Assembly: GCA_951406725.2 (NCBI GenBank)
Contig: OX597827.1
Coordinates: 37,944,001 to 38,008,000 of the forward strand
Reading direction: 5' to 3'
From: Octopus vulgaris
Taxonomy: Eukaryota
Length of the DNA stretch: 64,000 nt
In this document: in pieces, positions 1 through 48,300 of the stretch
How the letters are laid out: every line of letters starts with the position of its first letter
How positions within the stretch are numbered: position 1 is the first letter of the stretch
Program-made: the position numbers

Positions 1-3000
1 GAACAACCCAACACAGTAGCAGTCGCAGAACATAAACAGACACCACTGAATGACCAGCGCACACACAGACACAAAACATGTCCAGTTCTACCTCATATAT
101 TGGCACAGTATTTCCCCTGTTTATTTTCTTCTTTGCCAACTTGAAGCAAGTTGGTAATGTCATGTGGTGAATTTTTTGGTGTATCCAAGAAGTAAATGCA
201 AGTGTTGATTAAATAAATTATTTAAAACACAATCCGATGCTTTCCCATTGTTTTACTTTGATGTCATCCACATGCCTATTTTATCTGCTACCTCAGCATT
301 TTTTGCTACACCATCTCACTACATAATATTGTCTGTTTAAAGAAAGCTAAATATAAAGGGAAGGTGATTATAAATATTTACAAATGCTTGCTGATACAGT
401 GATGTTTGTAAATATTTATGAATGAAGAATTTTGCCAAGGCGGTAAGAGTGTGAAAGAGACAGAGATAGAGACTGTGTAGATGTTGCTTGGAAAAAAACT
501 CTCTGTGTATGCCATTAATATAATCCTGTGTAATTTTATACTTTGTATGGTTGTGTATAGAAATATAAACAAATTAACGTACGTACACACACACACAAAT
601 ATACTCATTTGTTTTGAAGTTTGTAATTTGTTGTATTAAATATATTTATCCACCTGCTATGGAGAATGAATCTGATAGAAGGCGATGGTTAGCCAGAGAG
701 AGACAAAGGTGAAGAACAGCCAGTCTCACTCAGGAAGAACTGGATGCAAGAAGATTAAACAATACATTAAGGTTATTAAATCAATCACGAGAAGTGAGAC
801 AAGAGAGATGAGTGCAAAATGCAAGAAGACAGGCTCGAAGACGTCAAAATGAAAAGGAGCACCTAATTGCACAAAGGAGAGATATCCAAAGAAAGGGAGG
901 GCAGCACAAAAGTGCCGAGATGAAACAGAAGAGCAAGCAGCAGTGAGAAGAGAATATCTAAGAATGAAAGCATCACAAAGACGATGATGAAACAGAAGAG
1001 GAAGCAGCATAAAGGAGAGAAATCAATGAGAAGAATGGAAGAATTAAACAAACCATCCAAAACAAGGCAAACTCATTGCTGGTAGGGTTTTCACTAGAAA
1101 CGTAGTGCTGAAGCAATTACTGAGATAAAGGTTGTAATGTTTTTATTTTGATTTTATTATCTGTATCATTTTCATGCTGTCATTTTTGACGGTACGGGTA
1201 CACAAGTTATCTAAGATTATTCTTAATACACACAAACACAACTCACATAATACATATCCACAAGCAATACCACTTGATTCAATAAATGAATACCAGTTGC
1301 TTGACCTGCTAGAAATAACAACCGGATCTGTTCAGTTAAGTATGGCTGTGGAAGTTAAGAAGTTTGCTTTGTAACTAAGTGGTTTTGAGTTTGATCCTGC
1401 TGCGCAGCACCTTGGACAAGTGTCTTCTACCTTACCCTCAGGTCAATCAGAGCTTCTGGAATAAAAACTGGTATATGGAAGCTATATGGATCCCATTAAA
1501 GGGGCCATTCTTGGTGATAACGGTAGACTTAATCCTTAACACAACTACCTAATCCTTGAGGAACCTTCAACAGAGTCTGCTCTTCTGCTCTGATTTCAGG
1601 ATAACCTCTTCCCTTCAGTTACATGGGTTCCTGAAATTAATAATGGATACTGTCCTTCTTCTTAATCATTAAAAAGAAAAAAGCTTCTAATAGTCCCTGA
1701 GGAATCAAAGTGAGCCATAATGGCCAATTCTGTTTGCTTGTATTCACTGCAATCATCAGTACTGTACACCAACTAAAATGAAATACGTTCCGATAGTCAT
1801 GATAAGCACTGCATATATACATGTGCAATGTGGGCCCAGACTAGAACTAAACCTTAACAACAGTCAAGTCAGTCACTTTATTGACTGATGGACAAAACTA
1901 CAGGTTTAGTTTGACTGCTAGAAATAGGGAGAAATCTCCCTCAAATCACACCTTACAGTCTGCTTGGTCAAGGATAACATTGGACTAAACAACTACTGCT
2001 ACTATTGTTGCAACAGATAAGATTGAAGATATATTTGCTATGTCACTTGGCACTCATGAATAATGATTTCTCTGAAACACAAAATCAGAAATGTGGAAGA
2101 GAAAATAAAAGTTTTAAGAACTGAAACTTTATCCTTATGTTTCACTCTGTCTACTATTTCCCAGTTTCAGTGCATTTATCACTTCCAGTCACCTCATTAC
2201 TTTTAAATCCTGCCCAATTCACTACCACTCCAATCTTTGTTTTAAACAATAATTGAAATTAAACATTTACAGAAGATATTTCTTCTTTTTCAGGACTGAA
2301 TGTCAAGAACAGATAAATGGTTTCTATGGCGCCAAGTTTAAGAAGTTCAGTACAGAAGAGGAAGCTCTGGCTTTTGCAGAAATTCCGGCATCAGGTGAAT
2401 AGAATTTTAGTGCTGTTTGGTATAATCAGTAGAGTGTTGAATGAATATCTTGTGGTATTTAGCTCAGTTTTTTACGTTCTGAGTTCAAATCCTAGTTAGG
2501 TCAATTAACTTTCATCCTTCTGGGGCTCAATAATGGTCCAGTACTGAGATTGATATAGTCAGCTGTTCTCTCATTGTGACTTTGTGTCTGTATCAAAAAA
2601 TAATTATTGTGCAGGTTTGGTTGTGTTGTGAAGAAGCTTGCTTTGCAATCATATGATTTCAGGTTCAGTCCTACTATGCTTGCATTTTGGGCAAGTGTCT
2701 TATACTATAGTCCAGGCTGACCAATACCTTGTGAGTGAATTTGGTAAACAGAACGTGGCCGATGCCAGCGCCGCCTTGACTGGATTCCGTGCCGGTGGCA
2801 TGTAAAAAGCACCAATCCAATTGTGGCTGTTGTCAGCCTCGCCTGACACCTGTGCTGGTGGCACGTAAAAAGCACCCACTACACTCACGGAGTGGTTAGC
2901 ATTAGGAAGGACATCCAGCTGTAGAAACATTGCCAGATCAGACTGGAGCCTGGTGCAGCCTTCTGGCTTCCTAGATCCCCGGTTGAACCATCAAATCCAT

Positions 3001-45300: not shown

Positions 45301-48300
45301 TGTGAATATTTTTACATCTGTTTAGTTGACTTTTGGGGGTTGAGAGTGGACACCAGTCCTCTCCTCAATTTAGCACGCTTTTTATCAGTGAACAGGTCTT
45401 AATCGCAATCCATGGGTCCACTGTTGTTATAGTTGTGTAATATCTTTAGTCAGTATTTAAAACTAATCTTAAATAATTTACTTCCATAAAACGAAAGATC
45501 ACCAGCATCTGTGTTAAACCAAAACAAGTTAAAAAATTGATCCAATTAGCACTGTTGACTTCTTATTTATGTGTTATTGTTTACACAAATTCCGACTTTT
45601 TACACTCTACTTTCAAATTCTGTTGAGGTGAGTTTTAGTTATCCACCTCCGGGGTTGGTCGATGAAATAAGTACCAGCGAAGGTATCGATTAACCCCTTT
45701 TCCCTCAAAATTGCTAGCCTTGAACCTACATTTAGTATGTATATTACCGTTAATGTACAGAACGGTTTAGCCCCTGTCAAGGCATTCCATCTCGTCTTCA
45801 ATTCGGTGTTTCTATGATTATATTACCTTGTGTAGCCTTCCTGTTTGAAGACAGTAGAGATATTTGACGGAGATTTGACTGGTAACCAGACTAATGAATC
45901 CTTGGCATCGAGGGAAAAAATGTTTCCAGGTCTGTGGATGGCAGAAATTAAATTCAAATCTTGCTTCCCCCCCCCCATCCTTTGATTCTGTTGGGGGTGG
46001 GGTAATAAAAGACATTCTATGTGAACTGAGACTAAACAACCACCAGGTTGAAACCCAAAGCACAAGTGCCAACATGAACTATTGTTTTTAAAATCTGATT
46101 GTCATACCAAGAATGTTTAGTTGATGACAATAGGCAATCAGTTACAGGCTGTCACCATCATCAATTTAGTTTTAAAGACCCACTCCAAATAACGTCTTTT
46201 GTATAAGCTAACAATATTCACTGTCAGTTGTCTTTATGAATTTTGCCCTTGTTAATTCTGATGTCTGTAATTCATTTAGCTATGTCATCTTACAAATAAT
46301 GTTTTCAATTTTATTTGTTATAATTTAAAATTTTCCAGTGTCATTTAATTTTCTGTTATTTACTTAATCTTATATAGATCTGATATCATCAGCCTTTTCT
46401 CATTCTTTCAGGGTATATAGAACAAAAAGAATTTATAAATTCTTTCATTCTTGTGTGGTGAAATTATTCGAGCTTGGTTCTACAATTTGTGAACCTACTT
46501 GTTAGTTTCTACTTAGTTTATACAACTCTCCTTATGTCCATTTTTAATGTTTTTCTGCTTCCAGATAAGGTTGGAAGAAAGGTGCATTGCTCCAAACACT
46601 ACAAGAACAAGATAAGAATTCTCAACTCTCTGGCCCCAAAAGTTGTCATTATCTGTCCACTGGATCATTGCAGCTTCCCTCAAACATGTTTATCCTTTGA
46701 AAGATACAGTACAGCTTGTAGTATGCTGGTAAGAGCTAAGCAGTCTGAAAAACACGCCCTGTATTTAGACACCCACACATTTCCCGTTTTATTTCTAGGA
46801 AACCGTTAACTGTTGCAGATATTGTTCTATTTTTAGATGACATCAGTGTTAGTTGCTGGCCTCTTAAGACGCCCGACCAGTATTTTAAATACACTCAAGC
46901 CTGCTTGCTGCTTAGATAATTTTATCGTCATGCCTTTCTATGCTGTGAAAAAAGGACATGCACCCGGGGTATATGAGACATGGTGAGACAATATTATTAT
47001 TAATAATTATTTGCACATAATTTGCCATTAATAGCCGACGAGAATGTATCGTAGCTCTCCACTCCGATATTCGAAACTTTGAGTACTATAATGACAACCT
47101 TTTACTGTTTGTTCTAAATTATAATATATATATATATATATAATTGGGCTTAGTAAAATAAATTACTTTGCCACATACTGAACTCATTAGAAATAGCAGC
47201 TAAAAAAACTTTTTTAAAACTATTTCTAATACTTTCAAAACCTTTGCGGTTTCATTTATTATTTATATCCCATAAACGTGTAAATAATGAAATTATGCTT
47301 GGCATTATTCTGACTTTTGGCGGACTTTTCCAAAACTCAGTCGGACTTTACTGCCACTTAAACACCGGTAGATTTCCGAAACAACGGAGATCAACAGGCG
47401 AGTGAAGTGGTGTCGAGATTCCATTTGTTTTCTAGTCTGTCAAATTTTCTTATACTGATGGTAAAAGACCAGCGCATGGCTCAGTGGTTAGAGCGTCGAG
47501 CTTACGATCGTGAGGTTGTGAGCTCGAATCTCGGACCGAGCTGCGTGTTGTGTTCTCGTGCAAGGCACTTTATTTCACGTTGCTCCAGTTCACTCAGCTG
47601 TAGAAATGAGTTGCGACGTCACTGGTGCCAAGCTGTATCGACCTTTGTCTTTCTCTTGGATAACACTGGTGGCGTGGAGAGGGGAGGCTGGTATGCATGG
47701 GCGACTGCTGGCCTTCCATAAAAACAACCTTGCCCAGACTTGTGTCTAGGAGGGTAACTTTCTAGGTGCAATCCCATGATTTTCTTCACCCGTTAGCCAA
47801 AAAAAAAAAAACTCACCTGCTGGGTGTTAACAACTGTGTAGAAAACGAATATGAGAAAAAAAAAATTTGCGCAAACGAACCGGCGGGTGGGGACAGGACT
47901 TTCGGAAAATTCACAAGATCCGATTTTTCGTCAACTTTGGGGAAAATGTATATATATTGATTTTTTTTTTTACTAGATCCAGTCCCATATTTTTGGTTAT
48001 GGAGGATCCGATTCTGAAATTTTTTTTTTTTCAAAACTTCAATTCAGACAAAACAACCGTTAATTTTCAGTGGGGAACTTTGGGTCGCAGTTTTTCATAA
48101 AAATTTGAATTTGTGTTTATTTTTTCCATATTCTTCATCTCCGTACTTTCCCACATAGATTGATTGAAAAAAAACTTTAATTTCATATTACTGCGGGAAA
48201 TTAATCTGAAAGAAATTTTTACAGGAAGGCGAGTGGATCGATTATATATTTCTTTCATTATGTTACCGAAGTTTTGTGAGATTTGGCTCTTATTTCTAGC

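What the first reader, a model, noticed from the sequence alone, without database searches (positions are those of the whole stretch)
2294..46982. RNase H1 exon 1 lies downstream of exons 2-8, with half-genes between: probable tandem duplication of an MRPL9-RNASEH1-COMMD4 block
Seen: the order is RNASEH1 exons 2-8 (+), COMMD4 last four exons only (-), RTE, MRPL9 last three exons only (+), RNASEH1 exon 1 (+). The two partial genes sit back to back with their missing 5' parts pointing at each other. Exon 1 ends in phase 2 (TG) and fits exon 2 (G). Inference: an ancestral MRPL9>RNASEH1><COMMD4 locus was duplicated in tandem with breakpoints inside both neighbours, so only RNASEH1 was copied whole. 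RNASEH1 is usually single copy in animals, and a second copy could matter for R-loops, mtDNA replication or LINE RNA:DNA hybrids. Alternatives are a false duplication from haplotypes, a mis-join, or interleaved genes.
Basis: partly seen in the sequence, partly recalled or inferred. Interest (0 to 1): 0.8.

Follow-up and report, generated by a model that had tools for sequence, protein, structure and literature searches.

The report
Octopus RNase H1 tandem-array unit boundary
This octopus window crosses the boundary between two neighbouring copies of the RNase H1 gene, separated by dead half-copies of two other genes and a retrotransposon, so the odd exon order reflects a real gene-family expansion of an enzyme that is usually single-copy in animals.

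Summary
RNASEH1 exons 2-8 (2294-12785, +) are intact, with canonical splice sites and all catalytic residues. Next come the last four COMMD4 exons (19232-24937, -), a non-LTR retrotransposon (about 25.5-29.4 kb), the last three MRPL9 exons (30063-32469, +), and RNASEH1 exon 1 (46837-46982, +). COMMD4 residues 1-101 and MRPL9 residues 1-137 are absent from the window.

The window is Octopus sinensis/vulgaris-like. Public annotations of those species point to a real, multi-copy duplication rather than a haplotype artefact:
- O. sinensis has at least four divergent versions of several RNase H1 exons.
- It has three separate 99-residue "MRPL9-like" genes, each on a contig that also carries RNase H1 genes. 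The three share two substitutions absent from full-length MRPL9.
- O. vulgaris has a gene model that joins a retrotransposon piece to the same three MRPL9 exons.

Accession order in O. vulgaris and O. bimaculoides hints instead at RNASEH1> <COMMD4 MRPL9>. That would mean whole-block duplication followed by a retrotransposon-bridged deletion.

The flanks, and therefore the second copy's exons 2-8, could not be checked. It is an ordinary kind of event with one interesting twist: most paralogues have lost the catalytic residues.

The parts
2294..2394 (+). RNASEH1 copy A exon 2 (second half of the hybrid-binding domain)
   Evidence: 33/33 residues identical to O. sinensis RNase H1 X1. Pfam PF01693 positions 19-44, E 7e-10. 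AG acceptor and GT donor read.
3924..4244 (+). RNASEH1 copy A exon 3 (linker)
   Evidence: tblastn: 90/90 identical to P0001 residues 1-90. Borders read.
6282..6396 (+). RNASEH1 copy A exon 4 (first catalytic Asp, 'FTDGCC')
   Evidence: 37/37 identical to P0021. Pfam PF00075 positions 3-26, 19.1 bits, below the 25.8 cut-off on its own. Borders read.
7283..7337 (+). RNASEH1 copy A exon 5 (catalytic Glu, 'NNRAEIY')
   Evidence: 18/18 identical to P0021. Borders read.
7568..7652 (+). RNASEH1 copy A exon 6 (second catalytic Asp, 'KTDSQF')
   Evidence: 28/28 identical to P0021. Borders read.
10261..10385 (+). RNASEH1 copy A exon 7
   Evidence: 41/41 identical to five O. sinensis proteins. Borders read.
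12696..12785 (+). RNASEH1 copy A exon 8 with stop ('IHVDAHCGVAGNEAADKLANKGAKLPLPE')
   Evidence: 27/29 identical to O. bimaculoides RNase H1. His and the last Asp are present. It matches none of the O. sinensis exon 8 versions retrieved (12-24 of 29 identical).
19232..19278 (-). COMMD4-like last exon with stop (residues 187-201)
22033..22147 (-). COMMD4-like exon (residues 149-186, COMM domain)
   Evidence: Pfam PF07258, 31.1 bits against a 22.4 cut-off. 36/38 identical to P0008.
23368..23429 (-). COMMD4-like exon (residues 128-148)
24859..24937 (-). COMMD4-like exon, the most 5' one kept (residues 102-127). No AG acceptor, and an in-frame TAA directly upstream.
   Evidence: 25/26 identical to P0008. 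Upstream sequence read.
25516..29355 (+). Degenerate non-LTR retrotransposon (AP endonuclease + RT, (ATG)n tail) bridging the two gene fragments. Its 5' end is not defined and lies somewhere in 24938-25590.
   Evidence: Pfam PF03372/PF14529 and PF00078. ORFs are broken into at least seven pieces. 93% identical over 1.66 kb to a copy at 57780-59426. Tail read.
30063..30164 (+). MRPL9-like exon (residues 138-171)
   Evidence: 34/34 identical to P0009 and P0010. AG acceptor read.
31695..31775 (+). MRPL9-like exon (residues 172-198)
   Evidence: Carries Val where full-length MRPL9 has Ala.
32332..32469 (+). MRPL9-like last exon with stop (residues 199-243)
   Evidence: Carries Glu where full-length MRPL9 has Lys.
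36935..44500 (+). Two related LTR-retrotransposon pol remnants between the MRPL9-like 3' end and RNASEH1 exon 1
   Evidence: Pfam RVT_1, RT_RNaseH, Integrase_H2C2 and rve. Internal repeats listed.
46837..46982 (+). RNASEH1 copy B exon 1: ATG at 46837 (31-residue presequence), second in-frame ATG at 46930 that starts the hybrid-binding domain. Ends in TG plus a GT donor.
   Evidence: 46/48 identical to O. sinensis RNase H1 X1/X2. Pfam PF01693 positions 1-16, 23 bits against a 21 cut-off. Sequence read.

Best explanation
The window spans the boundary between two units of a tandem array of RNASEH1-containing segments. The array is specific to the Octopus sinensis/vulgaris lineage.

The left unit contributes the body (exons 2-8) of an intact, canonical RNase H1 gene. 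Its exon 1 lies upstream of the window. The right unit contributes exon 1 of the next copy, whose exons 2-8 lie more than 17 kb downstream, beyond the window. Between them are non-functional 3' halves of COMMD4 and MRPL9, joined across a degenerate non-LTR retrotransposon.

Favoured origin (inferred, not shown):
1. The single-copy ancestor was RNASEH1> <COMMD4 MRPL9>, with COMMD4 and MRPL9 head to head.
2. The whole block duplicated in tandem.
3. In one unit, a deletion bridged by the retrotransposon removed the shared 5' region of COMMD4 and MRPL9.
4. That deleted unit was then amplified again by unequal crossing-over.

One copy keeps the enzyme. Most others have lost the active-site residues.
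For: Shown:
- Exon order, phases and intact splice sites.
- Both missing gene halves are truly absent from the window.
- Copy A keeps Asp, Glu, Asp, His and Asp at the positions aligned with human RNase H1.
- O. sinensis RefSeq holds at least four different versions of exons 3, 5, 6 and 8.
- Three 'MRPL9-like' 99-residue genes sit on three contigs (68.4 Mb, 113,448 bp, 101,264 bp). 3 of 3 of these contigs also carry RNase H1 or RNase H1-like genes.
- All four partial MRPL9 versions (window/P0016, P0014, P0015, P0010) have Val in 'AEEV'. All three that reach that far have Glu in 'QKEH'. Full-length MRPL9 of O. sinensis, O. vulgaris and O. bimaculoides has Ala and Lys. So the partial copies descend from one truncated copy.
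- O. vulgaris P0010 joins 14 retrotransposon residues (14/14 identical to window 25729-25770) to the same three MRPL9 exons. A second species' assembly therefore has the same layout.

For the favoured origin:
- O. vulgaris accession order is 841 partial MRPL9, 843/844 COMMD4, 845 full MRPL9.
- O. bimaculoides accession order is MRPL9, COMMD4 X1, COMMD4 X2, RNase H1, at steps of 10-11.
- The retained COMMD4 exon has no acceptor site, and the retrotransposon starts within 650 bp of it.
Against: - No flanking sequence was available. The second copy's exons 2-8 and the first copy's exon 1 were not seen.
- The window matches no single annotated O. sinensis RNase H1 model. Exons 2 and 4-7 equal isoform X1, but exon 3 is 92/106 identical, exon 8 is 12/29 and exon 1 is 46/48. 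Its exact place in any assembly is therefore unknown.
- The two unplaced O. sinensis contigs could be alternative haplotypes of part of the chromosomal array, which would inflate the copy count.
- Accession order is a weak proxy for gene order. In O. sinensis, COMMD4 and MRPL9 accessions are 60 apart, which does not obviously fit adjacency.
- No target-site duplication, or proven lack of one, could be established for the retrotransposon.
- The 14-residue retrotransposon match comes from a repeated family and is not unique.
Confidence: 0.5

Rival explanations
1. The ancestor was MRPL9>RNASEH1><COMMD4. One tandem duplication had its breakpoints inside MRPL9 and COMMD4, so the COMMD4-3'/MRPL9-3' joint is the duplication junction itself. 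The retrotransposon either inserted there later or mediated the exchange. The unit was later re-amplified.
For: - One event explains the junction.
- In the window, RNASEH1 is flanked by the MRPL9 3' end upstream and the COMMD4 3' end downstream, exactly as this model needs.
- All partial MRPL9 copies share the same derived residues, so the junction arose once.
- O. sinensis COMMD4 and MRPL9 accessions are 60 apart, which would fit them lying at opposite ends of an array.
Against: - In O. vulgaris, full-length MRPL9 (845) comes directly after COMMD4 (843/844) and after the partial MRPL9 (841). This model puts full MRPL9 at the far end of the array.
- O. bimaculoides accession order puts COMMD4 between MRPL9 and RNase H1.

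Both points rest on accession order only.
Confidence: 0.33
2. Assembly artefact. A mis-join or a falsely duplicated haplotype has placed exon 1 downstream of exons 2-8, and the genome has a single RNASEH1.
For: - Tandem arrays are hard to assemble.
- Two of the three O. sinensis contigs carrying these genes are short unplaced scaffolds.
- RefSeq isoforms X1-X4 of one 'gene' mix exons of different versions, which shows the region is confusing.
Against: - The window has no N and no internal duplication.
- The COMMD4 and MRPL9 pieces differ from the full-length genes, so they are separate loci.
- Paralogue divergence is far above allelic levels: 13 of 37 residues in exon 4, with loss of catalytic residues.
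- The layout of retrotransposon followed by partial MRPL9 recurs in O. vulgaris.
Confidence: 0.07
3. Orphan exon. The right-hand piece is only a truncated duplicate (MRPL9 3' part plus RNASEH1 exon 1) with no exons 2-8 behind it. There would then be no second whole gene at this spot.
For: - 17 kb downstream of exon 1 holds no RNASEH1 exon.
- This exon 1 has two changes (His-Ala in place of Arg-Val) that are seen in none of the retrieved proteins.
Against: - On other contigs, RefSeq models join an exon 1 lying next to an MRPL9-like gene to a full exon 2-8 set.
- Exon 1 here keeps both ATGs, an open frame and a GT donor.
Confidence: 0.1

Closest known systems
Single-copy canonical RNase H1 of Octopus bimaculoides (XP_014778914.1, P0004) and of human (PDB 2qk9, 6vrd)
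   Same: - Same eight-part coding layout.
- The hybrid-binding domain is split between exons 1 and 2.
- Catalytic Asp, Glu, Asp, His and Asp are all present in window exons 4, 5, 6 and 8.
- 267 of 292 residues of exons 2-8 are identical to O. bimaculoides.
- There are two in-frame start codons, as in the mammalian gene (the mammalian fact is recalled).
   Different: Here the exon 1 in view belongs to a different, downstream copy. In O. bimaculoides only one RNase H1 was retrieved.
O. sinensis RefSeq 'ribonuclease H1', 'ribonuclease H1-like' and '39S ribosomal protein L9, mitochondrial-like' genes (P0001-P0003, P0005, P0006, P0014-P0016, P0019-P0024)
   Same: - Same gene neighbourhood: a partial MRPL9 next to RNase H1.
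- The window's MRPL9-like exons read identical to P0016 over its 99 residues (by eye).
- Exon 3 is 90/90 identical to P0001.
   Different: - No retrieved model carries the window's intact exon 8 or its exon 1 variant.
- Most models lack two or more catalytic residues.
Plant RNase H1 gene families (Arabidopsis nuclear, mitochondrial and chloroplast paralogues). Recalled, not checked here.
   Same: RNase H1 is present as several paralogues in one genome.
   Different: The plant copies are dispersed, catalytically active and differ in targeting. The octopus copies are tandem and mostly lack the active site.
Insertion-associated target deletions by LINE-1-type retrotransposons. Recalled, not checked here.
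   Same: A non-LTR element sits exactly where several kb of target DNA (two gene 5' halves) is missing.
   Different: The element here is RTE-like, not L1. The absence of a target-site duplication could not be shown.

Membership tests
Eukaryotic RNase H1 | N-terminal hybrid-binding domain (Pfam PF01693) | tested here: met
   Exon 1 matches profile positions 1-16 (23 bits) and exon 2 positions 19-44 (39.4 bits), both above the 21-bit cut-off. The two exons belong to different gene copies.
Eukaryotic RNase H1 | RNase H domain (Pfam PF00075) | tested here: inconclusive
   Searched exon by exon only. Exons 4, 6, 7 and 8 hit consecutive profile parts (3-26, 49-73, 75-116, 118-140) at 19.1, 13.1, 22.8 and 22.4 bits. 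Each is below the 25.8 cut-off. The joined model was not searched. Exons 4-7 are 124/124 identical to a RefSeq RNase H1 (P0021); its cluster representative P0003 carries a precomputed PF00075.
Eukaryotic RNase H1 | Active-site Asp-Glu-Asp-Asp plus the conserved His | tested here: met
   Window exons read TDG, RAEI, KTDS and AHCGVAGNEAAD. These are the columns aligned with human YTDG, RAEI, (D210N) TNS and GHSGFIGNEEAD. Which residues are catalytic is recalled.
Eukaryotic RNase H1 | Mitochondrial presequence ahead of a second start codon | not tested
   Two in-frame ATGs at 46837 and 46930. No targeting predictor was available.
COMMD4 | C-terminal COMM domain (PF07258) | tested here: met
   Exon 22033-22147 scores 31.1 bits against a 22.4 cut-off.
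COMMD4 | N-terminal helical domain (residues 1-101 of P0008; PF21672 precomputed) | tested here: not met
   No tblastn match with E<1 anywhere in the window. This is a gene fragment, not a COMMD4 gene.
Mitochondrial ribosomal protein bL9m (MRPL9) | Ribosomal_L9_N domain (PF01281; lies within residues 1-137) | tested here: not met
   No tblastn match for residues 1-137. Only the C-terminal 106 residues are present, so this is a gene fragment.
Tandem segmental duplication | Two copies of the same segment, same orientation, adjacent | tested here: inconclusive
   Parts of two RNASEH1 genes lie on the same strand in the window. No segment is present twice within the window. Flanks are not available.
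Tandem segmental duplication | Copies are diverged paralogues, not alleles or assembly duplicates | tested here: met
   Partial COMMD4 differs at 4/100 residues and partial MRPL9 at 2/106 from the full-length genes. The MRPL9 changes are shared derived residues among the partial copies.
RTE-clade non-LTR retrotransposon | AP endonuclease plus reverse transcriptase in one reading direction | tested here: met
   PF03372/PF14529 at 25516-26427 and PF00078 at 26944-27731.
RTE-clade non-LTR retrotransposon | Phylogenetic placement of the RT in the RTE clade | not tested
   No reference set of non-LTR clades was available.

The most novel reading that the evidence does not exclude
The O. sinensis/vulgaris lineage has built, by tandem amplification, a small family of RNase H1 paralogues that keep an open frame, the linker and most of the hybrid-binding domain but have lost the active-site Asp/Glu/Asp/His. 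On this reading they are expressed and act as natural catalytically dead RNA:DNA-hybrid binders, working alongside the one intact enzyme encoded in this window. They could protect R-loops, compete for them, or act on retrotransposon intermediates.

Substitutions are concentrated in the catalytic exons: 23 of 83 residues in exons 4-6 against 5 of 180 in exons 2, 3 and 7 (Fisher p = 7e-9). The same comparison between species shows no such contrast (7/83 against 16/180). This fits directed change, but it fits gene conversion plus decay equally well.
Probability: 0.2. Interest if true: 0.7.

Novelty: new member of a known kind. Interest (0 to 1): 0.45.

Why it matters
RNase H1 removes RNA:DNA hybrids in the nucleus and mitochondria, and it is normally a single gene in animals (recalled). 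A lineage-specific array with one intact copy and several active-site-dead copies is a natural experiment on what the hybrid-binding part does without cleavage.

There are practical consequences too. Current octopus gene models at this locus mix exons from different units. A chimeric retrotransposon-MRPL9 model and three 'MRPL9-like' genes are annotated that are really truncated duplicates. Expression or orthology studies that use these models will be misled.

Three full-text searches found no paper on this: searches found nothing relevant, and one search listed only general R-loop papers, seen as listings only.

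Tried and rejected
I used ORF lists and reference proteins instead.
- Self-comparison of the window looked for overlap between the two window ends or a second copy of any gene segment. It found only transposon families.
- A search for a target-site duplication around the retrotransposon gave a best shared word of 13 bases whose left copy lies inside the element's ORF. 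Uninformative.
- Pfam scans of 20 further ORFs, between the MRPL9 3' end and exon 1 and in 47-58 kb, looked for pieces of other host genes that could mark a duplication junction. Only RT and mariner-type transposase remnants were significant. Four other matches had E 0.013-0.027, far below their cut-offs.
- 'Interleaved genes' was considered and rejected. It would need COMMD4 and MRPL9 each to have an intron reaching beyond the window and enclosing parts of RNASEH1. The fragments also differ from the full-length genes annotated elsewhere.
- The joined (spliced) RNASEH1 model was not built or searched. Exons were handled one at a time.
- The unseen O. vulgaris protein CAI9732842 could not be retrieved, because no look-up by accession is available. 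Whether it is an RNase H1 is open.
- No eukaryotic genome collection was available, so flanks, read depth and synteny stayed unchecked.

Full report
**What is in the window**

The 64-kb window has no N, about 37% G+C and many transposon remnants.

A search with the translation of one RNase H exon (10263-10385) returned seven proteins. All are octopod RNase H1: five from Octopus sinensis, one from O. bimaculoides and one from Argonauta hians. tblastn of these seven against the window gave the following:
- Exon 1 is found only at 46837-46983.
- Exons 2-8 are found only between 2292 and 12828, all on the plus strand.
- At E<=0.1 there is no exon 1 match upstream of 2292 and no exon 2-8 match in 47-64 kb.

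**RNASEH1 exon limits**

Reading the sequence fixes the exons:

| Exon | Coordinates |
|---|---|
| e1 | 46837-46982 |
| e2 | 2294-2394 |
| e3 | 3924-4244 |
| e4 | 6282-6396 |
| e5 | 7283-7337 |
| e6 | 7568-7652 |
| e7 | 10261-10385 |
| e8 | 12696-12785 (with stop) |

Every border is AG/GT. The phases fit throughout, and the lengths sum to 1038 nt.

Exon 1 ends in TG and exon 2 begins with G. Pfam places e1 on positions 1-16 and e2 on positions 19-44 of the 44-position RNase H1 N-terminal (hybrid-binding) domain.

Exon 1 has two in-frame ATGs, at 46837 and 46930, with a stop just upstream of the first.

Exons were searched and aligned one by one.

**Copy A is intact**

Exons 4, 5, 6 and 8 read FTDGCC, NNRAEIY, KTDSQF and IHVDAHCGVAGNEAADKLANKGAKLPLPE. 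In the alignment of the O. bimaculoides protein with human RNase H1 structures, these are the columns of the active-site Asp, Glu, Asp, His and Asp. Which residues are catalytic is recalled from the literature on the human enzyme.

Exons 2-8 are 267/292 identical to O. bimaculoides.

**The half-genes**

COMMD4:
- The COMM-domain exon retrieved one cluster. It is COMMD4, identical in O. vulgaris and O. sinensis (P0008, 201 aa).
- Against the window, 4 of 15 tblastn rows are significant and cover residues 102-201 in four minus-strand exons. The other 11 rows have E>=1.1.
- After removing read-through into introns, the fragment differs from P0008 at 4 of 100 residues.
- The most 5' exon kept (24859-24937) has no AG acceptor and has an in-frame TAA directly upstream. 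The break is therefore at or inside that exon.

MRPL9:
- The last exon retrieved O. sinensis MRPL9 (P0009, 243 aa) and a 108-residue O. vulgaris model (P0010).
- Residues 138-243 lie in three plus-strand exons, and residues 1-137 are absent.
- The fragment differs from P0009 at 2 of 106 residues.

Between the two fragments lies a degenerate element with AP-endonuclease and RT domains and an (ATG)n tail.

The clade name RTE was not tested.

**Is the duplication real?**

The window alone cannot show a second copy of anything. The public protein sets can.

- O. sinensis has three separate '39S ribosomal protein L9, mitochondrial-like' genes of 99 residues. They sit on the 68.4-Mb contig, a 101,264-bp contig and a 113,448-bp contig. 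All three contigs also carry RNase H1 or RNase H1-like genes.
- All partial MRPL9 versions share Val ('AEEV') and, where covered, Glu ('QKEH'). Full-length MRPL9 of three species has Ala and Lys. The partial copies therefore descend from one truncated ancestor that was copied again.
- A subgroup (P0014, P0015 and O. vulgaris P0010) shares a further Val-to-Ile change. This suggests that at least two units predate the sinensis/vulgaris split.
- P0010 begins with 14 residues that are 14/14 identical to the retrotransposon ORF at window 25729-25770, then continues into the three MRPL9 exons. That is the same layout in another species' assembly. Fourteen residues of a repeated family are not unique, though.
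- The O. sinensis RNase H1 proteins fall into at least four versions of exons 3, 5, 6 and 8. 'Isoforms' X1-X4 of one RefSeq gene differ in homologous exons, which means that gene model runs across several units.

Divergence of 13/37 residues in exon 4 is far beyond allelic variation.

**What the window is not**

No retrieved model equals the window:
- Exons 2 and 4-7 are identical to isoform X1.
- Exon 3 is identical to P0001 and P0019.
- The MRPL9-like exons read identical to P0016.
- The intact exon 8 and the exon 1 variant (His-Ala for Arg-Val) appear in none.

I therefore cannot say which assembly or unit this is. The two short contigs may be partly haplotypic, which would lower the copy count.

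**Origin of the unit**

Two models give the same present-day structure.

|---|---|---|
| Ancestral order | MRPL9>RNASEH1><COMMD4 | RNASEH1> <COMMD4 MRPL9> |
| Events | One duplication with breakpoints inside both neighbours | Whole-block tandem duplication, then a deletion of the head-to-head 5' halves |
| What the COMMD4/MRPL9 joint is | The duplication junction | A deletion, perhaps made when the retrotransposon inserted |

Accession order favours the second model:
- In O. vulgaris the order is partial MRPL9 (CAI9732841), one unseen protein, COMMD4 (843, 844), then full MRPL9 (845).
- In O. bimaculoides it is MRPL9, COMMD4 X1, COMMD4 X2, RNase H1, at regular steps of 10-11.

I favour the second model only moderately, because accession order is a proxy. 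In O. sinensis the COMMD4 and MRPL9 numbers are 60 apart.

**The paralogues**

| Models | First Asp | Glu | Second Asp | Exon 8 |
|---|---|---|---|---|
| Four models other than X1 (P0020, P0023, P0001, P0019) | Ala or Tyr | Val (in P0023, P0001, P0019) | Ser or Asn | Lack the His |
| X1 (P0021) | kept | kept | kept | No His; last Asp changed to Glu |

These states are read. The His is missing from exon 8 in all five models; the last Asp is Glu in four (P0021, P0020, P0001, P0019) but kept in P0023.

Differences from the window copy are concentrated in exons 4-6: 23/83 residues against 5/180 in exons 2, 3 and 7 (p = 7e-9). The between-species comparison shows no such contrast (7/83 against 16/180). 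Gene conversion of the outer exons, or selection on the core, could each explain this. Nucleotide sequences of the other copies are needed.

**Literature**

Three full-text searches were run: 'RNase H1' + octopus + duplication gave 0 papers, and RNASEH1 + cephalopod gave 1 irrelevant pearl-oyster paper. The third combined 'ribonuclease H1', paralog, 'catalytically inactive' and 'hybrid binding domain'; it found 12 papers holding at least three of the four terms, 10 listed, all general R-loop work. None describes this array. I saw listings and abstract starts only and read no paper. Supplements are closed and were not consulted.

**Verdict**

The tandem duplication is well supported by indirect evidence and is multi-copy. 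The exact breakpoint model is open. This is an ordinary kind of genome event, with an interesting set of active-site-dead RNase H1 paralogues attached.

Noticed in passing
O. sinensis proteins P0001, P0019, P0020, P0023 (no window coordinates): Four annotated RNase H1 paralogues have lost two or more of the active-site residues. The first Asp is Ala or Tyr, the Glu is Val in three of the four, the second Asp is Ser or Asn, and the His is deleted. All four still have open frames.
   Followed up: partly
window 6282-7652 versus 2294-4244 and 10261-10385: Differences between the window copy and O. sinensis isoform X3 are concentrated in exons 4-6 (23/83 residues) and nearly absent from exons 2, 3 and 7 (5/180). 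Fisher p = 7e-9. The comparison with O. bimaculoides shows no such contrast. Gene conversion or selection could explain it.
   Followed up: partly
O. sinensis RefSeq isoforms X1-X4 (P0021, P0003, P0020, P0002): 'Isoforms' of a single RefSeq gene carry different versions of homologous exons 1, 3, 4, 5 and 6. The gene model evidently spans more than one array unit.
   Followed up: partly
window 25729-25770, 30063-32403 and 34940-34969: O. vulgaris protein P0010 (CAI9732841.1) is a chimeric model. It consists of 14 retrotransposon residues, the three MRPL9-like exons, and a 10-residue tail that matches 34940-34969.
   Followed up: yes
window 46837-46982: Exon 1 has two in-frame start codons: ATG at 46837, then 31 residues, then ATG at 46930 at the start of the hybrid-binding domain. 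This is the same layout as the two-start mammalian RNASEH1 (the mammalian fact is recalled). A TAG lies directly upstream of the first ATG.
   Followed up: no
window 8975-9681 (-): A mariner-type transposase remnant (Transposase_1, E 1.1e-18, plus HTH pieces) lies inside RNASEH1 intron 6.
   Followed up: yes
window 36935-44500 (+): Two related LTR-retrotransposon pol remnants lie one after the other. A 432-bp repeat, 97% identical, occurs at 37239-37670 and 42148-42579. They sit in the intergenic stretch that would hold the junction under the block-duplication model.
   Followed up: partly
window 55065-57191: A cluster of direct and inverted repeats of about 360-930 bp, 98-99.7% identical, with no Pfam match at a meaningful level.
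   Followed up: no
window 2780-3040, 17950-18292, 28780-29340, 52186-52462, 57241-57780: A SINE-like family shares its sequence with the 3' tail of the non-LTR element, at 72-86% identity.
   Followed up: no
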